From Escherichia phage mEp013, in sequence record PP180002: a DNA stretch of 52,961 nt, one strand, 5' to 3'. The notes beneath the pieces are model-generated. The model saw nothing but the letters and a program-made list of their open reading frames with translations. It ran no database searches and was not told the origin of the DNA. Each line of letters starts with the position of its first letter. Position 1 is the stretch's first letter. Below are positions 5,276 through 43,335 of the stretch, piece by piece. A program made the position numbers and the translations under genes.

Positions 5276-5293
5276 TATGTCATTACCTCATGT

Positions 5294-6412
5294 TTACAAA
5301 ATGGAAAATTCAGGGTAATAAACAAAGCGCCCGATCTCCCCATGATCCGGGCTGTAAATAATAACCGCTGCCAGACGCCGCGACCGCCAGCCGCCATTAG
5401 TTGAGTAAGCGTCTTTACCCGCTAACGTGCCGTGATACTCAACAACGCCTAACGATGATTCGATTAGCCGTTGATGGTGCCAGTGCCCGCAATGAGCGTA
5501 AACCGCCGCAGACTTGCCAAAATCCTCACGCCAGTCAGCTACGCAAGCAGACAATAAATTTTCCGGCTTTTTGATAGTGTGCCCGTGGTGGTAAGCAAGG
5601 AATGTTTTTCCGTACTGTGTGTGGTGGACGATGGCAGGGGACACATCAACCGTCACGCGCGGTTCATCTTCGTAAAAAGCAGCCAGCGCCGCACGTAGCC
5701 AGATCATTCCTGACTGGTCGTGATTGCCGGATAACACCTGGATTTCAACATCCTTATGATTTAATAACATCTTCCCTACCGCCCGCCGGACCGACCGGAT
5801 CGCTACATAAACAAGTTTTGCGTAGCGACTATCTTGATCAAGAATGTGCCCGCTTGTTGGAGTCACCGGGACCATGCCGTCAGAGTGAAGCAGATCCCCA
5901 CCGAGAAGCAATACAGCTTTTTCAGACATCGGCGCAGCGCCTACAGCGTAGTCAAAGAAGTCATTCAACACGCGCTCAGCAATCCCAGTGTCGTAGCTCT
6001 CGCCACATTCGGCTTTATGAGCAAGCGCCCCGATATGCAGATCAAATACCGGATAAAGGGCCAGGCTTTTTTGAAAATCAATTTCAGGCACTGGCACGGC
6101 ATCCGCGCGTGGTATTTCCTCCGTGAATGCGTCGCAGGCAGCTTCCATTAGCCTTTCCATTTCATCACGGTCACGGGCTGTTTTAATCCAGCGCATGATC
6201 ACATTGCCGTTCTTATCGACTAGTAACGACTCGCCATTGACGCCAAAACCAGGCGCGCGGCGTGTTGACAATAAACCGCGTTTAGCCAGCTTTGCGCCAA
6301 GACGCTCGACGTTGCGTTTTGACATGCCATATTTTTCGGCGATCTGTTTATACGTTAAACCATTGTTATATTCAGCGATCAATTGCTCATCGCTGATTTT
6401 TCTTTGTGACAT
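5294..6412 (-). CDS. HTH domain fused to calcineurin-like metallophosphoesterase
   Basis: N-terminal HTH (LTYKQIAEKYGMSKRNVERL); phosphoesterase motifs GDLLHSD, SGNHD, GHWHH; RBS GAGGA. Confidence 0.75.
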   Translation of the reverse strand: MSQRKISDEQLIAEYNNGLTYKQIAEKYGMSKRNVERLGAKLAKRGLLSTRRAPGFGVNGESLLVDKNGNVIMRWIKTARDRDEMERLMEAACDAFTEEIPRADAVPVPEIDFQKSLALYPVFDLHIGALAHKAECGESYDTGIAERVLNDFFDYAVGAAPMSEKAVLLLGGDLLHSDGMVPVTPTSGHILDQDSRYAKLVYVAIRSVRRAVGKMLLNHKDVEIQVLSGNHDQSGMIWLRAALAAFYEDEPRVTVDVSPAIVHHTQYGKTFLAYHHGHTIKKPENLLSACVADWREDFGKSAAVYAHCGHWHHQRLIESSLGVVEYHGTLAGKDAYSTNGGWRSRRLAAVIIYSPDHGEIGRFVYYPEFSIL

Positions 6413-6445
6413 AGTGTTATTTCCTCTGGTTTACATTTTGTATAT

Positions 6446-6982
6446 TCATTGACAGCAAACAATCTCTTTATATGCCTCTTCTACCATGTCGAATACTTCC
6501 GGCCTGTAATAGAAAAACTCATTGCTGCCATCAAATTTTACAGGAAAGTTAATTTTATAATTGCTGAAATATTTATGCATCGTGCTTTCTAGTTTATGTA
6601 TATTTTCGGTTGACCCTTCTAACGTTTTCACGATACACAAATCAGGGATTCTAACGCCTGCTTTATGTGCGCTTTTTAATATTTCATTTCTTCGCTCGTT
6701 ATCCTTAACGCTTACACCGATTTTCATTTGTGTAGGTAATTCCAGATCATCAACCATGATGTAAAGTTTGCCATACTCATAACTAAGGAAACCGTATTTC
6801 GCGCATTTTGGGCAGCCGCGCCCGCGCTTAAGGTCGCTAGGAGTAGCCGACCACTCATGATCACAAACCTTACAGCGGCATGATACTTTTGTTTTGCAAT
6901 TGATAATTTCTCCCAACACTTCAACATTGGGGTTAATTCTTGAGATAGCGGCAACTTGCTCCTTATGAGTTAACTTGCGCAT
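6446..6982 (-). CDS. zinc-ribbon plus GIY-YIG-like (T5orf172/MUG113-type) protein, single-repeat paralog of 39479..40789
   Basis: One LTHKEQVAAI..C.C..C.HEW..GCPKC repeat then GKLYIMVDD..KIGVS..ERRN..EFFYY domain shared with the 436-aa protein; ATG at 6982 has RBS AGGAG. Confidence 0.7.
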   Translation of the reverse strand: MRKLTHKEQVAAISRINPNVEVLGEIINCKTKVSCRCKVCDHEWSATPSDLKRGRGCPKCAKYGFLSYEYGKLYIMVDDLELPTQMKIGVSVKDNERRNEILKSAHKAGVRIPDLCIVKTLEGSTENIHKLESTMHKYFSNYKINFPVKFDGSNEFFYYRPEVFDMVEEAYKEIVCCQ

Positions 6983-7115
6983 TGTCATAGCTCCTAAAAA
7001 CGCATCAGACGCGCTACAACGCAAAAAATCCCACCGCGTAACCCACTTGTAAGGGTGCAGTGTCTTTTTTGCGCCAGAAGCGCAATCAGGTGGCTAATTT
7101 TTGATTTACAGACTG

Positions 7116-8364: not shown

Positions 8365-8610
8365 CTAAAACATTAACTGATAAACACAGAAGAAACCTGG
8401 CAGCTGACTGATTAGGCCGCTTCTTTTCAGTTGATGCAGTGCAGAGATAGTGTCACGTAACGAAATTTCGCACATTTCAGCGATTTCTTCCGGCGTTACT
8501 TCGCTTTTGCCGTTGCATCCGGCCTTTGTTGCCAGTGCAATTAAGATGAGTTTTTGCGTCGGATCATTGTTATTCAGGCGAATATCAAAAGCCTTGCGAA
8601 CGTAATACAT
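8365..8610 (-). CDS. Cro-position winged-HTH DNA-binding protein (81 aa)
   Basis: First gene divergent from cI; RBS AGGAGAAAG; aligns with N-terminal domain of the O-like protein (DP.QKLILI..EISLRD); may be Cro- or CII-like. Confidence 0.55.
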   Translation of the reverse strand: MYYVRKAFDIRLNNNDPTQKLILIALATKAGCNGKSEVTPEEIAEMCEISLRDTISALHQLKRSGLISQLPGFFCVYQLMF

Positions 8611-8915
8611 GTTTCTTTCTCCTATGGTTAGGTGAACGCGCGGGCGGGTATCCAATTAGCATTAGATAGCAGTGACTGACCGCTGAACAGATCCCGCCGT
8701 TGCGTGATATTTGTTTTTCGCTTCGCAGCGACACCGGGTTTTTAAAGAGCTTTTAAGGTATGTGCCTTTTGTGCTTTCCCTTATCTCTTTCCTTGCATCA
8801 TTGCAAGTTCGGCTTTACCTTGTCTGTAAGTTTACAGAATGGCGTTAACAGATCAAGGATTGAAAATTACATTTTGTGACTTGCATCAAAATTTTTTAGG
8901 TTATAGGGTAGCGAC

Positions 8916-9563
8916 ATGAAAACAAAATGGTATGACCTGGCAAAACAACTCATGCGGGCGCAGGGCATGAGTCAAGATTCATTGGCAGATCTCATGGGGA
9001 TCACTAAAGGCGGCTTGTCACACTGGCTTAACGGTCGCCGCGAGCCAAATCTTGAAGACATTGCGCGGATTATGCGGGCGCTTGGGCGTCGGCAGTTCAC
9101 TGTCACACATGATGGAATGGTCATTGATGACTCTGTTTCTAACACGTTGCCGGGAGCGCCACCGCGTGATTTAGGCAGTTACCCGGTTGTTGACTGGAAG
9201 GATGTAGTAAACAATATGGAAGATGCAAGGCGATCAACATTACCACACGTTACGACTAGCGTTATTTGTTCAGATGATAGTTATTGGCTGGTAGCTAAAG
9301 GCGAATCAATGAACGCGCCGCAAGGATTGAGTATACCAGCGGGGACGATGATACTTGTCGATCCGCACGCGCCAGCTATTGACGGAAAACTGGTTATAGC
9401 CCAACTGGAGGAGGGGCAGATACCGACGTTTAAACAGTTGATTATTGATGGAGGCAGAAAACTTTTGCGTTCACTGAATCCGTTGTATCCGCCAATCCCT
9501 ATGAATCCAGAATCTAAAATCATAGGCGTGGTAGTGGATGCGAAGATCGTAAACCTGCCATAA
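8916..9563 (+). CDS. cI: CI-type repressor (HTH_XRE plus S24 LexA-like peptidase domain)
   Basis: N-terminal HTH (MSQDSLADLMGITKGGLSHWLNG); C-terminal autocleavage domain with GESM Ser and downstream Lys. Confidence 0.85.
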   Translation: MKTKWYDLAKQLMRAQGMSQDSLADLMGITKGGLSHWLNGRREPNLEDIARIMRALGRRQFTVTHDGMVIDDSVSNTLPGAPPRDLGSYPVVDWKDVVNNMEDARRSTLPHVTTSVICSDDSYWLVAKGESMNAPQGLSIPAGTMILVDPHAPAIDGKLVIAQLEEGQIPTFKQLIIDGGRKLLRSLNPLYPPIPMNPESKIIGVVVDAKIVNLP

Positions 9564-9593: not shown

Positions 9594-9686
9594 GCCGGAA
9601 AAACACCAAAACGTAAACAGAAAACGTTATTTATTGTTTAAATATCAATAACATATAAAATATTTTAAAAAAGTATACAAAATGGA

Positions 9687-9715
9687 TTGACTCGGTGTTT
9701 TACGGGGCGTATATT
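9687..9715 (+). promoter_or_regulatory. PL-like sigma70 promoter (TTGACT-17-TATATT)
   Basis: Near-consensus hexamers with 17-nt spacer; flanked by 8-bp inverted repeat TTGACTCG/CGAGTCAA; TATACAAAATGG motif directly upstream. Confidence 0.65.
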
Positions 9716-9850: not shown

Positions 9851-10141
9851 ATGACAGTTACAATCATGTATGGCAAATGTGACAGTAAACTGAATGCCAG
9901 GGAACGCAGAAGAATAAAAAGAGAAAACGAAAGAAAATCATCACCTGCAATCAATAAAACGGACAATGTGGATAAAGCCATTCGCTTTGCAAACGAGGAA
10001 AGATGCAAACCCAATGGCATTAAAGAACGTCGCAAAGGATCAGTTAAATGGTATAAGGAAAACGAAAGCGGCAACTACTACCACGCAACGCAACCACGCC
10101 AGTTAGGGGAAAAACCCCTTGATAAAGTCCGTTACCATTAA
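9851..10141 (+). CDS. N-like antitermination protein (arginine-rich motif)
   Basis: 96 aa, basic; N-terminal ARM NARERRRIKRENERK; first gene after PL/nutL; strong RBS TAAGGAG. Confidence 0.5.
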   Translation: MTVTIMYGKCDSKLNARERRRIKRENERKSSPAINKTDNVDKAIRFANEERCKPNGIKERRKGSVKWYKENESGNYYHATQPRQLGEKPLDKVRYH

Positions 10142-10171
10142 TACAAAATGTAAATAATCGGAGGTGACATT

Positions 10172-14137: not shown

Positions 14138-14235
14138 CATCGTGATTGCTATCACATGAATATACATTTTGTGTTGTGATCGCATATCCGTTTTGTAAAC
14201 TGAAATTAAAGGTTTACAGCGCGGAGGAAAGCAAG

Positions 14236-15426: not shown

Positions 15427-15966
15427 ATGAAAAATGATTTTGGAGGCAGTAATACGCCAAAAGAGATTAAAGACCTGTGGCAGACGCCGAAACCAGTTTT
15501 CAGGGGAATGGATCGTGAATTTGAATTTGTCGCTGACGTTGCGGCAAATAAGGAAAATGCGCTAATTCCGCGATATATAACCGAAGAAATGGACACGCTA
15601 CATTATCCGTGGGGAGCGGTGGCAATGCCTGGTGAATATGTATGGATGAATCCGCCATATTCGAATCCTGGGCCATTCGTTGACAAGGCGGCGCTAGAAC
15701 ATCAACGGAATCACATCGGTTGCGTAATGTTATTGCCCGCTGACGTTTCTGTTAGCTGGTTCATGAACGGCGTGGAGACTGCAAACGAATGCCGATTAAT
15801 CACGCGCGGGCGTCTGGCGTTTATCAATGCTGCGACTGGTAAGCCAGTAAGCGGAAACAACAAAGGCAGCTTGTTTTTGATCTGGCATCCACGGTGCAGA
15901 CATGAATGTATTTTTACACACATAACGCGTAAAGAGCTATATGCAAGAGGTGCAGAAAATGACTAG
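15427..15966 (+). CDS. phage Dam-like DNA N6-adenine methyltransferase
   Basis: 179 aa; catalytic NPPY-type motif (WMNPPYS); RBS GGGGG. Confidence 0.75.
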   Translation: MKNDFGGSNTPKEIKDLWQTPKPVFRGMDREFEFVADVAANKENALIPRYITEEMDTLHYPWGAVAMPGEYVWMNPPYSNPGPFVDKAALEHQRNHIGCVMLLPADVSVSWFMNGVETANECRLITRGRLAFINAATGKPVSGNNKGSLFLIWHPRCRHECIFTHITRKELYARGAEND

Positions 15967-17701: not shown

Positions 17702-17860
17702 AATTTACAAAATGGCGTCATTGCGTGATGTGGATCACATAATGGCGCTTTTCACCTTGTTCTGACGTATCCATTTTGTATACTTCAATCAAGCAAAATG
17801 CTCTTTAAAAATCCGGCAGCGCTGAAATGCGTAGAAATCACCTGAAAAGGAGAGAGCATT

Positions 17861-19061: not shown

Positions 19062-19240
19062 AAAACGAAATTAAAGATCTGCAAATAGATATTCAGCGCG
19101 ATGAGCATGATTTAGCTACAGTCAGACAAATCCAGGCTTTCCACATGAGAGAACTGCTTGCGCTGAAAGAGCTTGAAAGAAAGTTGGTCCAATCAATATC
19201 TGATCGTAAACGTCTGGTTGCTCGTTACGGGGGCAAATAA
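19058..19240 (+). CDS. hypothetical protein (60 aa, coiled-coil)
   Basis: ORF coupled between rusA and Q. Confidence 0.45.
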   Translation: MKNEIKDLQIDIQRDEHDLATVRQIQAFHMRELLALKELERKLVQSISDRKRLVARYGGK

Positions 19241-19962
19241 TGAATCTGGAATCAATTCTTAAATTCCACTTCCCAAAATCACCGCGTTTGTCAGATGAAA
19301 GCCGTGGCACGTCCCCGGATGCTCTTAATACTACTGATGCACTAACTGCCGCAGGTATGGCGCAATCGCGCGTAGAGCTTGGTTACAGCGCTTTTTTAGG
19401 GAAGATGGAACTATCACAAGCCGAAAAGCACAGGGCCGTAGTTTTGCTTACAGAGCGTTTAATGGCTATGGCAAAAGATTATGAATACGTTATGGAACTG
19501 GACGAGGCCAAACGCAATGATCTCATTATTCTTATTGCCGTTTTCGCGTTTCGGGATTATTGCCAGAGCGCCGCGACGGAAAAAACTTGTATGGAGTGCG
19601 GCGGATATAAATTTACGTTTGACGAATACGGGGAAAAACACCTTTGCAAAAAATGTAAGGGGCATGGGAAAGTTCTTAATCATTGCAAACAATGCAAGGG
19701 CCGTGGCGAAGTACCGGATAAAGCAGCCAGTGAAGCGGCGGAAATGCCAGTGTTCAAAACGTGCCAGCACTGCGGCGGGCGAGGGTACTCGCGTTTCCCT
19801 GTAGATCTTGTCCGGCAGGCTGTTAATCAGCTTGTTTTTCCGGTAAGCCGATCAACATGGTGGAAAAAATACCGGGTTTTCTATGAAGACGCCATTGCTG
19901 AATTGTTCAAAGAAGAGGCGCGGGCTGATAACGAAATTAAGCAGGTGACGCGGGGTGAATGA
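19240..19962 (+). CDS. Q: late antiterminator Q (lambda-type)
   Basis: Matches lambda Q as recalled (LESILKFHFPKSP, AAGMAQS, CQSAAT, zinc-finger CxxC..CxxC, GYSRFP). Confidence 0.8.
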   Translation: MNLESILKFHFPKSPRLSDESRGTSPDALNTTDALTAAGMAQSRVELGYSAFLGKMELSQAEKHRAVVLLTERLMAMAKDYEYVMELDEAKRNDLIILIAVFAFRDYCQSAATEKTCMECGGYKFTFDEYGEKHLCKKCKGHGKVLNHCKQCKGRGEVPDKAASEAAEMPVFKTCQHCGGRGYSRFPVDLVRQAVNQLVFPVSRSTWWKKYRVFYEDAIAELFKEEARADNEIKQVTRGE

Positions 19963-35831: not shown

Positions 35832-36512
35832 ATGATCCATGTTCGTACCGGACAATTTGCGGCTGTGGTGAACGGTAAGCGCTATAAATTTAACCCGTGT
35901 TTCGCTGCGATGGCTAAAATCGGTAATGACAGGGAGCTTGTGGAATGTTTCGCAACCATCCACGGTAGCAAATACCCTTCACGATTACCTACAGATCCAG
36001 ACCTCCGCAATCGCATTATGGCGCGGTGTTATGGTGAGATAGTGCAAACGTCTATACACATCCTGAAATGTTGCTCAGACGACGAAACAGGCCCGTTATT
36101 AGGCGAATGCTGGTTCACTCCTTCGGGTAAATTGAGATTAAAACCGGGAATAATGCCAGTTGATGATGTTATTACGCTGGCGCAACACTGCATGTACCAC
36201 GGTTTAATTGGTGACAGCCCTGAAGAGGTCGCAAGCGATAGACGGGAAGGTGAATACAAACCAACGTTCGACATACTGGAGTTTGTTTATTCTGCCGTTG
36301 CTCACCTGGGGTTATCAGAATCAGAAGCGTGGAATATGACAATGACCGGATATAGGGCCGCTGTGCGTGCTAAAACGCCACCAGAAGCAAGAAGCAAACA
36401 AAAACGACCAAATGTATTGCTTGATAAAAAGGCTTATGACGATGGAATGAGGGAGGCTATGGAGGTGCTGGAAAGACTAAAAAAATCCAAAGAACAAAAA
36501 GCCCGGAATTAG
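35832..36512 (+). CDS. tail assembly chaperone (G/GT-like)
   Basis: Position immediately upstream of tape measure region; RBS AGGG. Confidence 0.55.
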   Translation: MIHVRTGQFAAVVNGKRYKFNPCFAAMAKIGNDRELVECFATIHGSKYPSRLPTDPDLRNRIMARCYGEIVQTSIHILKCCSDDETGPLLGECWFTPSGKLRLKPGIMPVDDVITLAQHCMYHGLIGDSPEEVASDRREGEYKPTFDILEFVYSAVAHLGLSESEAWNMTMTGYRAAVRAKTPPEARSKQKRPNVLLDKKAYDDGMREAMEVLERLKKSKEQKARN

Positions 36513-36526
36513 CCGGGCCTTTCTTT
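36496..36526. terminator. bidirectional terminator between convergent genes
   Basis: GCCCGG-AATTA-GCCGGGC flanked by A-run and T-run. Confidence 0.6.
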
Positions 36527-37090: not shown

Positions 37091-37216
37091 AATTCACCTC
37101 GTTTTTGTTTGATTTCTTAACTGTTCCCTATGGCTTCTTTATACAAAATGGAGTCGCTGAAGTAAAGCCATTTTGTATAAAATAGAGACACAGATCACAA
37201 AACCGGAGTAGCAATC

Positions 37217-39478: not shown

Positions 39479-40789
39479 TTACGCTGCTTTTATAATTTCT
39501 TCATACTTATCTTCCACCATGCTAAAAACTTCTGGTCTATAGTAGAAAAATTCGCAACTACCATCAAATTTTACGGGGAAGTTAATTTTGTAATTACTAA
39601 GTTTTTTGTGTATCGCGCCCTCTAGTTCAAAGATATTTTGTGTCGGACCTTCTAATGTTTTTACGATATGTAAATCAGGAATTGTCACACCAGCCTTATG
39701 TGCACTGCTTAGTATTCTATTCCTTCGTTCGTTTTCCTTAACACTTACCCCTACTTTCATTAGCGTTGGCACTTCCATATCGTCAACCATGATATAAAGT
39801 TTGCCGCGTTCGTAGGATAAAAAACCTTTTTTCGCACATTTTAAACATCCGCTACCTCCTTTAAGTTTTTGCGGCGTGGTTCTCCACTTATAGCCACACA
39901 CTTTACATAGACACGATACTTTGGTTTTGTTTCCTGTTATCTTACCAACAACTTTGATATTAGGGTTGATGTTGGCAATGGCTTTTATTTGTTCTTCATG
40001 CGATATTCTTCGCGCTTGTGCTCTTTTTGATGCCGCGCACTTCGGGCAACCAGTGCCTTTTTTAAGGCTGGCTGGAGTAGTTAACCATTCATGACCGCAA
40101 TACTTACAGCTGCATAACGTCCTTGTAGTATTGCTAATAATTTTCCCTAACACCTCAACGCCAGGGCTAGTTTTCGCAATAGCTGTAACCTGTTCTTTGT
40201 GTGATAATTTCATCTTCCCTGAACATTTCGGGCAGCCAGTACCATGCTTGAGATTATTTGGAGTGGCTGACCATTCATAATTGCAAATCTTACATTTGCA
40301 TAATACGTTTTTTAAACTTGAAGTAATTTTTCCCAAGATTTCAATATTGCTGTTAACCTTCGCAATGGATGCAACTTGTTCTTCATGCGTTAATCTTCTA
40401 TCTGTACATTTCGGGCAACCTTGCCCGATTTTAAGTGTTTCAGGTCTAGCCATCCATTCGTGATTACAAACCTTGCAATGGCATAATACTTTTGTTTTAT
40501 TATTAATAATTTTCCCTAATACCTTAACATCAGGATTAACTTTAGCAATAATTGCAATCTGTTCTTCATGTGGTAATGCTCGTTTTTGCGCTCTTTTTGA
40601 TGCCGCGCACTTCGGGCAACCAATACCACGCTTAAGATCAGCAGGTCTACCAAACCATTCGTGATTACAAGTTTTGCAGCAGCATGATACTTTTTCCATA
40701 TTCCCGGTAATTACCCCTATCACCTCGATGTTGGGGTTAACTTTTGCAATGGCGGCAACTTGTTCTTCGTGTGTTAATTTTTTTGTCAT
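39479..40789 (-). CDS. five tandem zinc-ribbon repeats plus GIY-YIG-like (T5orf172/MUG113-type) C-terminal domain
   Basis: Five ~62-aa repeats (L.HEEQ.A.IAKVNP...C.C..C.HEW...GCPKC) then GKLYIMVDD..KVGVS..ERRN..EFFYY domain; paralog of 6446..6982. Confidence 0.7.
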   Translation of the reverse strand: MTKKLTHEEQVAAIAKVNPNIEVIGVITGNMEKVSCCCKTCNHEWFGRPADLKRGIGCPKCAASKRAQKRALPHEEQIAIIAKVNPDVKVLGKIINNKTKVLCHCKVCNHEWMARPETLKIGQGCPKCTDRRLTHEEQVASIAKVNSNIEILGKITSSLKNVLCKCKICNYEWSATPNNLKHGTGCPKCSGKMKLSHKEQVTAIAKTSPGVEVLGKIISNTTRTLCSCKYCGHEWLTTPASLKKGTGCPKCAASKRAQARRISHEEQIKAIANINPNIKVVGKITGNKTKVSCLCKVCGYKWRTTPQKLKGGSGCLKCAKKGFLSYERGKLYIMVDDMEVPTLMKVGVSVKENERRNRILSSAHKAGVTIPDLHIVKTLEGPTQNIFELEGAIHKKLSNYKINFPVKFDGSCEFFYYRPEVFSMVEDKYEEIIKAA

Positions 40790-41156: not shown

Positions 41157-41411
41157 TCATTTATGTGCCCCTTTTACGCCACAGTGTCGGTTGTATTCCA
41201 GATGGTCAATAATTAACCACATCTTTAAATCTTCGCTGAATAACCGCCAATCTGGGTTGATGTCAAATTTATAACCGTAGCCATCGCGTAATTTTTTGGG
41301 GTTGGCCTCTTTTTTCAGGAAAGCGTTTAATAAGGCTTTGCCCTTTTTGATGATCCGGTCCTGTGCGTTTTTCTGTGCTTTCAGGTTTTTACCAATCGCC
41401 ACCAATTTCAT
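41157..41411 (-). CDS. hypothetical basic protein (84 aa)
   Basis: ATG at 41411 with RBS GGGGTGG inside ORF 41157..41429. Confidence 0.5.
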   Translation of the reverse strand: MKLVAIGKNLKAQKNAQDRIIKKGKALLNAFLKKEANPKKLRDGYGYKFDINPDWRLFSEDLKMWLIIDHLEYNRHCGVKGAHK

Positions 41412-41429
41412 AATCCACCCCGCAATCAA

Positions 41430-41585
41430 TTAGTTGACCACTTTCAGGAAGAAATCACGGTATTCGTCTTCTTTTGCGTTCATCATGAACTGACCGTATT
41501 TGAATGCGTCATCAAAGCCTTTGACTATCGCCACCTCAACCTGCTCGAATGCTTTGTTTAGCATTACCACTACATAGCGTTTCAT
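41430..41585 (-). CDS. hypothetical protein (51 aa)
   Basis: ATG at 41585 with RBS GTGGGG inside ORF 41430..41636. Confidence 0.4.
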   Translation of the reverse strand: MKRYVVVMLNKAFEQVEVAIVKGFDDAFKYGQFMMNAKEDEYRDFFLKVVN

Positions 41586-41754
41586 ATTGTCCCCACTTTG
41601 TTGGTACTGTTTTCTCTTCTTGCTTTCTGTATACATCTTGTTACGTCCTGCGTGAAGCCATTTCGTAAACTGGGTATAATTCTTGTGACGAAGTTCTCAT
41701 TTTCGCGTAGAAGCGCGTAAAGATGTATGCAATATGTAACTTATAGGGGGAATC

Positions 41755-42108
41755 ATGCCGGAAGTTTTCAGATGGACGCCGCAAAGAAGCTACAGCGTGA
41801 CCAGGGAACCAAATGTGTCGGTCGTTAAACTTGGTGATGGTTATGAACAGCGCCAGGCGAAAGGGATTAACACGTTGCTTGATAGCTACACCCTGGTTTT
41901 TAAAGGCAGTAGCGCAGGATGCGGTGATAGTGGGAACGTGGCGATCCAGGCAGAAGCATTCTTGAGGGCGCGCGGCGCTGTCGAGGCTTTTTACTGGTCG
42001 CCGTCTATGGATGGAGTGCAAAGGCTTTTTGTTTGCCGTAGCTGGAGTATGACAAAGGACGGGCCTGTATACACGCTAAACGCAACATTTGAGCAAGTTG
42101 TCAGCTAG
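41755..42108 (+). CDS. M: minor tail protein, lambda gpM-like
   Basis: 117 aa; matches lambda M pattern as recalled (FRWTP, KLGDGY.QR, F..A.GA...FYW.P, FEQVV). Confidence 0.8.
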   Translation: MPEVFRWTPQRSYSVTREPNVSVVKLGDGYEQRQAKGINTLLDSYTLVFKGSSAGCGDSGNVAIQAEAFLRARGAVEAFYWSPSMDGVQRLFVCRSWSMTKDGPVYTLNATFEQVVS

Positions 42109-42483: not shown

Positions 42484-42732
42484 CTATAAGTTATCACGCA
42501 GGTAATTAACGCCCTTATCAGTGACGAATGAATGGTTGACCTGGTTTTCATCCGTCATGATGACGAATAACTTTTCCTGTAGGTATTTCGCTTTCGGGTA
42601 CAGTGTTAAACAGACCTGGTACAGTATCCCGCGCTCAATCAGCAAATCAATAAATTCGTGCTCATGATAACCGATGAGGCGGGCGGCCTGTTTCAACGTG
42701 TACACATAATCACCGTGATTGCGCCGCGCCAT
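42484..42732 (-). CDS. hypothetical protein (82 aa), possible HTH
   Basis: RBS AGGTGGGA. Confidence 0.5.
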   Translation of the reverse strand: MARRNHGDYVYTLKQAARLIGYHEHEFIDLLIERGILYQVCLTLYPKAKYLQEKLFVIMTDENQVNHSFVTDKGVNYLRDNL

Positions 42733-43260: not shown

Positions 43261-43306
43261 CTCACACCTCCGCGCCATTTTGTTAACCATGCTTCCTTTT
43301 GAGTAC

Positions 43307-43335
43307 AATATACATATTGTAAAAAGCGCTATCAA
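43307..43335 (-). promoter_or_regulatory. sigma70-like promoter for the minus-strand cassette (TTGATA-17-TATATT)
   Basis: On minus strand: TTGATA, 17-nt spacer, TATATT, ~40 nt upstream of the cassette's first start. Confidence 0.55.

What the first reader, a model, noticed from the sequence alone, without database searches (positions are those of the whole stretch)
37140..37179. Recurring motif TATACAAAATGG / CCATTTTGTATA at module boundaries
The 12-mer or close variants occur at 9674-9685 (abutting the PL-like -35), 17706-17715 and 17771-17782, 37140-37151 and 37168-37179 (a perfect inverted pair with 16-bp spacer upstream of H and of the minus-strand moron), 50172-50183, 50202-50213 and 50235-50244 (upstream of the tail fibre gene), 6433-6444, 8869-8880, 14161-14173 and 5295-5304. 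About seven exact 9-mer core hits are seen where roughly 0.4 is expected by chance. The placement suggests a binding site for a phage regulator or host factor coordinating moron and late-gene restart promoters.
Basis: seen in the sequence. Interest (0 to 1): 0.6.

Follow-up and report, generated by a model that had tools for sequence, protein, structure and literature searches.

The report
Dispersed operators of the phage repressor
The recurring 12-base motif is most likely the DNA site bound by this E. coli phage's own lambda-CI-like immunity repressor, and it sits not only at the usual early promoters but also at about half a dozen promoters scattered through the early and tail-gene regions.

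Summary
TATACAAAATGG occurs four times exactly; 29 sites have ≤2 mismatches against 7.5 expected. In intergenic DNA alone, six sites have ≤1 mismatch against 0.05 expected.

The window belongs to the mEpimmI (mEp021) group of E. coli temperate phages. The 12-mer is the strong half plus centre of a 15-bp dyad, TWTACR-N3-YGTAWA. I read it as the operator of the phage's lambda-CI homologue, Rep (8916-9563).

Main evidence:
- Sites overlap the -10 (centre about -16) of at least seven σ70-like promoters. A partner lies about 25 bp (-41) or 35 bp (-51) upstream.
- Every family member keeps the sites while flanking cassettes differ.
- The two arms at 37140-37179 never co-vary, so selection does not preserve a hairpin.
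- Unrelated prophages in other genera share only the Rep helix-turn-helix domain. They carry the same dyad around their repressor genes, and the outer base changes with the recognition helix.

The 40-bp element upstream of the tape-measure gene is a PL-type operator/promoter cassette. It heads a minus-strand accessory gene.

No binding experiment exists for these sites. Their effect at tail-region promoters (repression or activation) is inferred. I rate this a new member of a known kind, of moderate interest.

The parts
8916..9563 (+). rep: CI-like repressor gene (HTH_3 plus Peptidase_S24 domains), the proposed binder
   Evidence: Pfam and PHROGs matches. Lambda CI structure 3BDN matches at E=1e-18 over both domains. 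The mEp021 orthologue Rep021 confers immunity (PMC11893012).
8831..8845 (.). OR1-like operator TTTACAGAATGGCGT. It overlaps the -10 (8829-8834) of the minus-strand PR-like promoter TTGATC-16-TAAACT (-35 at 8851-8856); centre about -16.
   Evidence: Sequence. Conserved in 47 loci. Equivalent position (-82 to -89) to the dyads in the cross-genus switches.
8866..8880 (.). OR2-like operator ATTACATTTTGTGAC. Centre is 43 bp before the rep ATG and about -51 from the PR-like start site.
   Evidence: Same position (-49/-50) and same half-site as the middle operator of the cross-genus switches.
9674..9688 (.). OL2-like operator TATACAAAATGGATT, abutting the PL-like -35; centre about -41
9699..9713 (.). 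OL1-like operator TTTACGGGGCGTATA, a perfect 12/12 dyad with a G-rich centre. It overlaps the PL-like -10 and lies 25 bp from OL2.
   Evidence: Dyad scan. Conservation.
9687..9715 (+). PL-like σ70 promoter TTGACT-17-TATATT. It is followed by a boxA-like sequence (nutR1) and the N-like gene 9851-10141.
   Evidence: Promoter scan scores 10/12. PHROG N-like match. Nut sites described in PMC11893012.
5293..5307 (.). Single operator-like site TTTACAAAATGGAAA. It overlaps the stop codon of the 5294-6412 gene, 17 nt before the dnaB-like start. Role unclear.
6430..6444 (.). Perfect dyad TTTACATTTTGTATA in the 33-bp gap before the gene 6412-5294. Role unclear: a weak internal promoter or a roadblock.
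   Evidence: Conserved in mEp021 (7721) although the upstream gene differs.
10140..10154 (.). Operator-like site AATACAAAATGTAAA at the stop codon of the N-like gene. Role unclear.
14161..14201 (+). Internal early promoter with two operators: TATACATTTTGTGTT (14161-14175, centre about -40) and TATCCGTTTTGTAAA (14185-14199, centre about -16). Promoter TTGTGA(14174-14179)-16-TAAACT(14196-14201).
   Evidence: Sequence..
17704..17784 (+). Three sites at 17704-17718, 17734-17748 (weak) and 17768-17782. The last overlaps the -10 of TTGTTC(17757-17762)-16-TATACT(17779-17784), which is followed by the nutR2 boxA.
   Evidence: nutR2 position from PMC11893012.
37140..37179 (.). The flagged 40-bp element: operators at 37140-37154 and 37165-37179, centres 25 bp apart. 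On the minus strand it reads operator(-41)-C-TTTACT(-35, 37166-37161)-17-TATAAA(-10, 37143-38), heading gene 37097-36525. On the plus strand only a -10-like TATAAA/TAAAAT faces the tape-measure gene.
   Evidence: A PL-type cassette of the same design occurs in Symbiopectobacterium locus L180.
41628..41680 (.). Divergent promoter region with operators at 41630-41644 (weak) and 41655-41669, 25 bp apart. Minus strand: TTCACG-17-TATACA towards 41636-39479 (unknown gene, ParE-like toxin, endonuclease). Plus strand: GTGAAG-17-TATAAT (41652-41680) towards the minor tail gene at 41755.
   Evidence: Conserved in 59 loci.
43272..43335 (-). Promoter TTGATA-17-TATATT (43335-43307) with a perfect dyad TATACATATTGTAAA (43309-43323) over the -10 and a second site at 43272-43286 (about +21). 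It heads 43260-42484, which includes a KilAC antirepressor-like gene.
   Evidence: Promoter scan scores 10/12..
50169..50247 (.). Three sites at 50169-50183, 50199-50213 and 50233-50247, between the exclusion-lipoprotein gene (50107-49859, minus) and the tail-fibre gene (50284, plus)
   Evidence: Retained beside different lipoprotein cassettes and in genomes with no cassette.

Best explanation
The motif is the operator of the phage's immunity repressor Rep, a lambda-CI homologue encoded at 8916-9563. By analogy with lambda, the Cro-position protein may bind the same sites.

The full site is a 15-bp pseudo-dyad, TWTACR-N3-YGTAWA. One half is strong (TATACA) and the other is usually degenerate (TGG/TGT...).

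Rep dimers would bind pairs of sites with centres 24-25 bp apart, as lambda OR1-OR2 are spaced. One site lies over the -10 (about -16) and the other abuts the -35 (about -41). Together they would shut off σ70 promoters in the lysogen.

Unlike lambda, this phage group has such operator/promoter cassettes at many places:
- the PR-like and PL-like early promoters;
- two internal early promoters, at 14.2 kb and 17.8 kb;
- four intergenic regions inside the tail-gene cluster (37.1, 41.6, 43.3 and 50.2 kb). There they head short minus-strand accessory cassettes: an unknown 190-aa protein; a ParE-like toxin plus endonuclease; a KilAC antirepressor-like set; and an exclusion lipoprotein. Some also face tail genes.

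The 40-bp inverted pair at 37140-37179 is one such PL-type cassette.

Shown here: enrichment, conservation, promoter-relative geometry, absence of hairpin co-variation, and cross-genus association with the Rep helix-turn-helix domain. Inferred: actual Rep binding, cooperativity, and repression of the tail-region cassettes in lysogens with early expression after induction or infection.
For: 1. Enrichment against whole-window and intergenic-only models. The centre-free dyad model gives 4 perfect dyads against 0.06 expected, and 11 at >=11/12 against 2.0.

2. Family conservation. The 40-bp element is present with a fixed 16-bp spacer in every mEpimmI locus that spans the junction (about 40), beside several dissimilar left-flank (moron 5' UTR) sequences. 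None of about 28 distant loci has a hit. In the subset of 30 loci (22 distinct sequences) that could be aligned across the flanks, arm columns are 0.96-1.00 conserved, against spacer 0.88 and flanks 0.78-0.86. The complete site set recurs in mEp021. The P41, P43 and P50 sites are conserved, including beside different cassettes or none.

3. Geometry. A site is centred near -16 at seven predicted promoters. A partner lies at -40/-41 at four of them (PL, P14, P37, P41) and at about -50 at two (PR-like, P17), from sequence.

4. Rep is a two-domain lambda CI homologue (3BDN, E=1e-18). In that alignment Asp aligns with lambda Glu34 and with Asp38.

5. Cross-genus test. Repressors with the helix T[K/R]G..HWLNGRREP in Symbiopectobacterium, Serratia and Xenorhabdus have TATACR-N3-YGTATA at -23 and -82 from their start codons, and again just downstream of the gene. 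In Serratia the downstream sites are a pair 25 bp apart. Ten of 11 such loci have a dyad of >=11/12 within -150..0, against 1 of 14 other loci; chance gives 0.006 per 150 bp. TQG-helix repressors have AATACR-N3-YGTAAT/ATT at the same positions.

6. Those loci share no Cro-position or N-like protein with the window, and often share only the N-terminal helix-turn-helix domain of Rep. They show no nucleotide homology with the window outside rep coding sequence.

7. Unrelated low-GC phages carry the same arms in the switch next to an Xre-type repressor with a similar helix (GLISHYINARRSP).
Against: - No binding or expression data exist for these sites. The promoters are consensus predictions, and only two pass the tool's strict scan.
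- Most sites are strongly asymmetric: G is preferred at position 12 where a true dyad would have T. That is unusual for a symmetric dimer and is not explained.
- The cross-genus loci are not all independent (seven or more come from Xenorhabdus), so the Fisher p-value overstates the support. There are about four or five independent lineages per group.
- Accessory 'morons' such as exclusion lipoproteins are usually expressed in lysogens. That fits poorly with repression by Rep.
- Three single sites (5293, 6430, 10140) have no convincing promoter.
- The OR3-equivalent seen in other genera is degenerate in this family.
- One group of hits in giant-virus-like contigs (L138, L145, L174) shows that exact arm pairs can arise with no related repressor.
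Confidence: 0.75

Rival explanations
1. Rep bound at the -41 site works as a class-II activator, as lambda CI does at PRM. The tail-region cassettes would then be switched on in the lysogen, not off. The dyad element would act as a concentration-dependent bidirectional switch.
For: A site centred at -41 to -43 matches the lambda OR2/PRM geometry. Rep has Asp at the positions aligned with lambda CI Glu34 and Asp38, the positive-control patch (the role of those lambda residues is from my own knowledge). OR2-like sites lie 42-43 bp before the apparently leaderless rep start in the window and in other genera. Exclusion lipoproteins and toxin-antitoxin modules are typically lysogen-expressed (general knowledge).
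Against: Every one of these promoters also has a site over its -10, and at 37140-37179 both arms are full-consensus 12-mers. The -35 and -10 hexamers are already reasonable (TTTACT/TATAAA, TTGATA/TATATT) and do not need an activator. The same arrangement occurs at the PL-like promoter, which must be repressed in a lysogen.
Confidence: 0.12
2. The sites belong to a different phage protein, such as the Cro-position HTH protein (8365-8655), and Rep uses other operators.
For: The Cro-position protein has an HTH (HTH_36) and is a core gene. An unexplained palindrome CTTGCATCATTGCAAG (8792-8807), and the inverted repeat TTGACTCG/CGAGTCAA around the PL core, could be alternative Rep sites.
Against: Cross-genus loci with the same dyads have no homologue of that protein in the Cro position, but do share the Rep helix-turn-helix domain. 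The operator's outer base co-varies with the Rep recognition helix. In lambda-type switches Cro and CI share operators, so this is more a complement than a rival.
Confidence: 0.06
3. The motif is only a shared σ70 promoter core (end of the spacer plus a -10 such as CCATTTTG|TATACT), with no dedicated binding protein.
For: Read on the other strand, the motif ends in TATACT, TATAAA, TAAACT or TATATT at most sites.
Against: σ70 does not require the eight conserved bases upstream of the -10. The TG sits one base out of register for an extended -10. Several sites lie upstream of the -35, or point antisense within operons (9674, 17704, 10140, 6433). This reading does not explain the cross-genus link to a repressor helix.
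Confidence: 0.03
4. The 40-bp inverted repeat acts as a hairpin or cruciform: an RNA element, a terminator, or a recombination or linker site at mosaic junctions.
For: It folds at -10.2 kcal/mol with z=-3.8. It sits exactly where sequence similarity between relatives breaks on the moron side.
Against: None of the 20 distinct variants shows a compensatory change, and 12 of 20 have mismatched arms. No T-tract follows either arm. There is no Rfam match. Most other sites are single or differently spaced. The junction position is explained by the cassette carrying its own promoter.
Confidence: 0.03
5. The motif is a binding site for a host factor such as IHF, Fis, CRP or DnaA.
For: The motif is AT-rich and intergenic. 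GATCACA next to some sites resembles half of a CRP site (the resemblance is my own reading).
Against: Compared by eye with the consensus sequences WATCAANNNNTTR (IHF), TGTGA-N6-TCACA (CRP) and TTATCCACA (DnaA), the motif fits none. It is absent from other E. coli lambdoid loci (L048-L050, L092-L121). The same site tracks a phage repressor helix in other host genera.
Confidence: 0.01

Closest known systems
Lambda CI / OR-OL operators (lambdoid immunity switch)
   Same: - Rep is a homologous two-domain repressor.
- Operators are pseudo-dyads with one consensus half and one degenerate half.
- Sites overlap the -10 and -35 of divergent early promoters on either side of the repressor gene.
- Adjacent sites are 24-25 bp apart, against 23-24 bp in lambda.
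- An OR2-like site lies 42-43 bp before an apparently leaderless repressor start.
- Relatives in other genera have a tripartite OR at -82, -49 and -23.
   Different: - The site is 15 bp (TWTACR-N3-YGTAWA), not 17 bp, and has a different sequence.
- In this family OR has only two clear sites, 35 bp apart.
- The same operator/promoter cassette is repeated at six or more further places, four of them inside the tail-gene cluster. Lambda CI has operators only at OL and OR.
- According to PMC11893012, Rep lacks the Ala-Gly cleavage site and lysogens are not UV-inducible.
Stoperators of Cluster A mycobacteriophages (L5 gp71)
   Same: About 20 repressor sites are spread over the whole genome, including the structural-gene region. 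Sites look asymmetric. The site sequence co-varies with the repressor across relatives (PMC6550527).
   Different: Stoperators are mostly not promoter-associated, are oriented with transcription, and are bound without cooperativity to block elongation. Here the sites occur in both orientations, in pairs or triplets, and mostly over predicted -10/-35 elements. The repressor is a CI-type dimeriser. Only the three single sites (5293, 6430, 10140) could act like stoperators.
Phage P1 C1 repressor regulon (own knowledge, not checked here)
   Same: One immunity repressor controls many promoters scattered round the genome through a shared operator sequence.
   Different: P1 C1 is unrelated in sequence and binds 17-bp asymmetric sites as a monomer. 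P1 is a plasmid prophage with a different genome layout.
P22 immI / antirepressor control (own knowledge, not checked here)
   Same: An antirepressor-like (KilAC) gene is embedded among late genes, behind its own operator-controlled promoter.
   Different: In P22, ant is controlled by the dedicated repressors Mnt and Arc, not by the main c2 repressor. Here the promoter carries the main repressor's operator.

Membership tests
Lambda-type CI operator | Cognate repressor is a CI-family protein (HTH plus S24 or dimerisation domain) | tested here: met
   Pfam HTH_3 plus Peptidase_S24. 3BDN matches at E=1e-18 over residues 15-208.
Lambda-type CI operator | Sites have (pseudo-)dyad symmetry of about 14-18 bp | tested here: inconclusive
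   The centre-free dyad model is strongly enriched: 4 perfect dyads against 0.06 expected, and 11 at >=11/12 against 2.0. But the commonest form, TATACAAAATGG, has a weak second half, and positions 13-15 carry little information.
Lambda-type CI operator | Sites flank the repressor gene and overlap the core of the divergent early promoters | tested here: met
   8831-8845 and 8866-8880 lie upstream of rep. 9674-9688 and 9699-9713 lie downstream, over TTGACT-17-TATATT. The promoters are predictions only.
Lambda-type CI operator | Adjacent sites spaced about 2.3 helical turns apart, allowing pairwise cooperativity | tested here: met
   Centre-to-centre spacing is 25 bp at PL, 37.1 kb and 41.6 kb, and 24 bp at 14.2 kb. 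It is 25 bp in Serratia L186 and Xenorhabdus L195. Cooperativity itself was not tested.
Lambda-type CI operator | Operator sequence co-varies with the repressor's recognition helix among homologues | tested here: met
   T[K/R]G helices go with TATAC...GTATA; TQG helices go with AATAC...GTAAT/ATT at the same positions; other helices have none. The lineages are only partly independent.
Lambda-type CI operator | Direct, specific binding by the repressor, and loss of immunity in operator mutants | not testable with these tools
   Needs EMSA or footprinting, ChIP, or genetics.
Stoperator (L5-type) | Sites oriented predominantly with the direction of transcription | tested here: not met
   Both orientations occur within single operons and within single clusters, for example 17704(+)/17771(-), 14161(-) and 14185(-) in a plus-strand operon, and 5293(+) in a minus-strand operon.
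Stoperator (L5-type) | [quoted passage not shown] | tested here: not met
   Most strong sites overlap predicted -10/-35 hexamers. Only 5293, 6430 and 10140 lack a convincing promoter.
Intrinsic terminator / structured RNA | Stem maintained by compensatory change; T-tract or an Rfam model | tested here: not met
   No compensated variant among 20. No T-tract. No Rfam match.

The most novel reading that the evidence does not exclude
Rep is a genome-wide dual regulator. From the -41 sites it activates the accessory cassettes (exclusion lipoprotein, ParE-like toxin, KilAC protein) in the lysogen, as lambda CI activates PRM. From the -16 sites, and by looping between ten or more operator pairs spread over 45 kb, it silences early and tail-facing promoters. 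The 40-bp dyads would then be bidirectional switches that tie lysogenic-conversion genes directly to the immunity state, and portable promoter/operator sockets into which different cassettes are swapped.
Probability: 0.15. Interest if true: 0.7.

Novelty: new member of a known kind. Interest (0 to 1): 0.5.

Why it matters
The mEpimmI phages were described in 2025 as a prevalent group of human-gut coliphages forming a single immunity group. Their repressor (Rep021) was shown to confer immunity, but no operator was reported in that paper (PMC11893012).

This analysis gives a concrete and testable operator, TWTACR-N3-YGTAWA, and a map of about 20 sites in 11 clusters.

It predicts that the immunity repressor also controls promoters inside the tail-gene cluster. 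Those promoters head exclusion, toxin, endonuclease and antirepressor-like cassettes. If so, these 'morons' would be immunity-controlled early genes rather than constitutive lysogenic-conversion genes, and the operator cassette would be a conserved socket next to which cassettes are exchanged.

The cross-genus pairing of recognition helix and operator (K/R with T, Q with A at the outermost base) is a small natural specificity series. It could be useful for studying or engineering CI-type repressors.

Tried and rejected
- Palindrome-only model: positions 13-15 proved weakly informative. I kept a pseudo-dyad with one strong half.
- PWM refinement at a low threshold drifted into A-rich coding hits, so I did not use it for counting.
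- Promoter-only reading (motif as spacer plus -10): rejected, because orientation is inconsistent within operons and some sites lie at -41.
- Hairpin: rejected on the absence of co-variation.
- Distant Rep homologues L048-L050 (36% identity) turned out to be unrelated lambdoid backbones. They show only that the motif is family-specific.
- The low-GC phage hits are suggestive but could be convergence. A third group (L138, L145, L174, giant-virus-like) has the arms with no repressor nearby and is probably chance.
- The Gp17 antitermination paper (Valencia-Toxqui 2023), which might map promoters, is not held.
- Literature searches for the sequence gave only unrelated eukaryotic primers.
- The strict σ70 scan found nothing at 37.1 or 50.2 kb, because it requires T at the last -10 position. 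Those promoters rest on my manual reading.
- I could not test whether prophages in other genera also have dispersed late-region operators, because only 6-kb loci were available.

Full report
OBSERVATION

The 12-mer TATACAAAATGG is present at the coordinates given. Exact copies lie at 9674(+), 17771(-), 37140(+) and 37168(-), and 37140-37179 is a perfect 12-bp inverted pair with a 16-bp spacer.

With up to two mismatches there are 29 hits against 7.5 +/- 2.7 in dinucleotide-preserving shuffles. The 9-mer core occurs 11 times against 1.03 expected.

It does not vanish. Within about 4.9 kb of intergenic DNA, against a first-order Markov model of that DNA, there are 6 sites with <=1 mismatch against 0.05 expected. 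A few coding hits with two mismatches are probably chance.

WHAT THE WINDOW IS

The window is about 90% identical to the mEp021 / mEpimmI group of temperate E. coli phages: mEp010, mEp044, mEp554, mEp515, mEp021 and MagusPhagus.

The layout is a mirrored lambda immunity region:
- A minus-strand operon runs from about 8655: the Cro-position HTH protein, an O-like initiator and a DnaB-like helicase.
- A CI-like repressor gene, rep, lies at 8916-9563 (+).
- A strong promoter TTGACT-17-TATATT at 9687-9715 leads to an N-like antiterminator, Erf, a Q-like protein at 19240-19962 and the late genes.

The published description of the group shows that Rep021 confers immunity and describes three nut sites. 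It does not report operators (PMC11893012).

THE MOTIF IS A CONSERVED PROTEIN-TYPE SITE, NOT A HAIRPIN

I collected about 45 family members from IMG/VR. Every locus that spans the junction has the 40-bp element with an invariant 16-bp spacer. The DNA to its left (the 5' end of the minus-strand 'moron') shows several dissimilar sequence types by inspection. None of about 28 distant relatives of the anchor gene has a single hit with <=1 mismatch.

In the subset of 30 loci (22 distinct sequences) that align across the flanks, arm columns are 0.96-1.00 conserved. The spacer is 0.88, the flanks 0.78-0.86 and adjacent coding DNA 0.90.

Among the 20 distinct variants of the element, position 12 changes G to T in one arm or the other in 12 cases and is never compensated in the partner arm. 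A second variant (AACGG) is likewise uncompensated. The element can fold (-10.2 kcal/mol, z=-3.8), but folding is not what selection preserves. There is no T-tract and no Rfam match.

THE FULL SITE AND ITS GEOMETRY

Some sites extend to near-perfect palindromes, for example TATACAAAATGTAAA at 6430 and TATACATTTTGTATA in mEp021. A centre-free dyad model, TWTACR-N3-YGTAWA, finds 4 perfect matches against 0.06 expected and 11 at >=11/12 against 2.0. Three of these the 12-mer search had missed:
- TTTACGGGGCGTATA (9699-9713), over the -10 of the PL-like promoter;
- TATACATATTGTAAA (43309-43323), over the -10 of the predicted promoter at 43335-43307;
- TATACATCTTGTTAC (41630-41644), which scores 10/12.

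Most sites nevertheless have one strong half and one weak half, with G favoured at position 12.

Reading the sequence against hexamer positions gives a repeated design (promoters are inferred; only the promoters at 9687 and 43335 pass the strict scan). A site is centred near -16, its last four bases being the first four of the -10, at seven promoters:
- PR-like (8831-8845);
- PL-like (9699-9713);
- P14 (14185-14199);
- P17 (17768-17782), which is followed by the nutR2 boxA;
- P37, minus strand (37140-37154);
- P41, minus strand (41630-41644);
- P43, minus strand (43309-43323).

A second site lies 24-25 bp upstream (about -41, one base from the -35) at PL, P14, P37 and P41. It lies about 35 bp upstream (about -50) at the PR-like promoter and P17.

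The flagged element therefore reads, on the minus strand: operator-C-TTTACT-17-TATAAA, leading to gene 37097-36525.

The same site set recurs in mEp021. The P41, P43 and P50 regions are conserved across 16-59 loci. The P50 operators persist beside two different lipoprotein cassettes and in genomes with no cassette at all.

WHO BINDS IT

Rep is a homologue of lambda CI in both domains (3BDN, E=1e-18). In the alignment, Asp in Rep aligns with lambda Glu34 and with Asp38.

I searched one genome per bacterial species with the Rep N-terminal 66 residues and obtained 35 loci in other genera.

Repressors whose recognition helix reads T[K/R]G(G/A)x(S/G)HWLNGRREP occur in Symbiopectobacterium, Serratia and Xenorhabdus. 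They have TATACR-N3-YGTATA at -23/-29 and -82/-89 from the repressor start, and again just downstream of the gene. Ten of 11 such loci have a dyad of >=11/12 within 150 bp upstream, against 1 of 14 others; 0.006 is expected by chance per 150 bp.

Repressors with TQG helices (Citrobacter, Enterobacter, Trabulsiella, Erwinia, Pantoea, Rahnella, Pseudomonas-type) carry AATACR-N3-YGTAAT/ATT at the same positions. Their middle site in Citrobacter and Enterobacter reads AATACAAAATGG. This is co-variation between helix and operator.

The downstream, PL-equivalent regions repeat the window's cassette design:
- Symbiopectobacterium: TATACATAATGT-N16-CCATTATGTATA|CT, with TTTACA in the spacer;
- Serratia: two dyads 25 bp apart ending in TATACT;
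- Xenorhabdus: TATACAAAATGTA-C-TTGCCT-16-TATACT.

These loci share no Cro-position or N-like protein with the window, and many share only the helix-turn-helix domain of Rep. BLASTN finds no nucleotide similarity with the window outside rep coding sequence.

The lineages are only partly independent, since several loci are Xenorhabdus. The nominal Fisher p of 3.5e-5 is therefore optimistic.

A reverse search of all viral contigs for the arm pair also found low-GC phages with TATACAAAATGT-N26-ACATTTTGTATA in the switch next to a 148-aa Xre-type repressor whose helix (GLISHYINARRSP) resembles Rep's. This is suggestive but could be convergence. A giant-virus-like group with the arms and no repressor nearby is probably chance.

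MECHANISM PROPOSED

Rep dimers bind the 15-bp pseudo-dyads. Pairs 24-25 bp apart are probably filled cooperatively, as at lambda OR1-OR2. Occupancy of the -16 site blocks RNA polymerase.

In the lysogen this would silence the two early operons, two internal early promoters and the promoters in the tail cluster. The tail-cluster promoters head four gene sets:
- an unknown 190-aa protein;
- an unknown gene, a ParE-like toxin and a T5orf172/treble-clef endonuclease;
- two unknown genes and a KilAC antirepressor-like protein;
- the exclusion lipoprotein.

The OR2-like site, 43 bp before the apparently leaderless rep start, probably activates rep transcription as in lambda. In other genera the equivalent site is at -42, and an OR3-like site covers a TATAAT. 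All of this is inference from geometry and homology.

The main rival is that the -41 sites activate the cassettes in lysogens. It cannot be excluded, and it is the more novel reading.

COMPARISON AND NOVELTY

The system works like lambda CI/OR-OL and meets the sequence-level membership tests. Binding was not testable here.

It differs in having the operator/promoter cassette repeated at six or more further places, including inside the late region. In dispersal it resembles L5 stoperators (PMC6550527) and P1 C1 operators. It fails the stoperator criteria: sites occur in both orientations and are promoter-associated. Only the single sites at 5293, 6430 and 10140 could act as roadblocks.

I rate it a new member of a known kind: the previously undescribed operator set of the mEpimmI repressor, with an unusual genome-wide distribution.

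The regulator is most likely the immunity repressor itself, and the boundary placement follows from where the promoters lie.

Noticed in passing
window 17733-17745, 50232-50244, 37191-37198, 14176-14182: Several weaker operator-like sites read GATCACA(A/T)AATGG, that is ATCACA in place of TATACA, and so contain a Dam site (GATC). GATCACA downstream of the 40-bp element is conserved across the family. The phage encodes its own DNA adenine methyltransferase homologue (15427-15966; the equivalent mEp021 gene is annotated Dam). Methylation-sensitive repressor binding is conceivable.
   Followed up: no
L124, L128, L129, L142, L159, L161, L170, L171, L175 (IMG/VR contigs, 24-27% GC): Unrelated low-GC phages carry TATACAAAATGT-N26-ACATTTTGTATA in their genetic switch. 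It lies between an Xre-type repressor plus ImmA-like protease and the early genes. The right arm covers the -10 of TTGACT-17-TATAAT, and the operator spacing is 35 bp, as at the window's PR-like promoter. The repressor helix resembles Rep's.
   Followed up: partly
window 8792-8807 and 9687-9694/9717-9724: Two unexplained symmetric sequences lie in the immunity region. One is the palindrome CTTGCATCATTGCAAG, just downstream of the inferred PR-like start site. The other is the 8-bp inverted repeat TTGACTCG...CGAGTCAA, which brackets the PL-like core promoter.
   Followed up: no
window 8890-8915 compared with L180, L186, L189: Relatives in other genera have a third operator, OR3-like, at -23, whose GTATAAT supplies the -10 for an apparently leaderless repressor mRNA. 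In the mEpimmI family this site is degenerate (TTTTTTAGGTTATAG), which suggests altered negative autoregulation.
   Followed up: partly
window 6446-7024 and 39479-40789 (both minus strand): Two T5orf172/GIY-YIG-type endonuclease genes with treble-clef zinc fingers look like homing-endonuclease insertions. Each sits next to an operator-like site, and they are variably present among relatives: mEp021 has different genes at both places.
   Followed up: partly
window 41157-41636 and 42484-42732 (minus strand): A ParE-like toxin gene, preceded by a 68-aa ORF that may be its antitoxin, and a KilAC-domain antirepressor-like gene are embedded among tail genes behind operator-bearing promoters. PMC11893012 notes that Rep lacks the Ala-Gly autocleavage site and that lysogens are not UV-inducible, so an antirepressor route to induction is worth testing.
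   Followed up: partly
window 36496-36523 and 49833-49853: Bidirectional intrinsic-terminator-like hairpins close the 3' ends of the minus-strand cassettes against the preceding plus-strand tail genes. Each cassette is therefore a complete unit of operator-promoter, gene and terminator inserted antisense in the late operon.
   Followed up: no
window 28616-28630 compared with mEp021 29103-29117: A dyad inside the portal gene scores 11/12 in both phages, but the mismatch is in opposite halves: TATACAAACTGTACA against TGTACAAACTGTATA. This may be chance in coding DNA or a maintained intragenic site.
   Followed up: no
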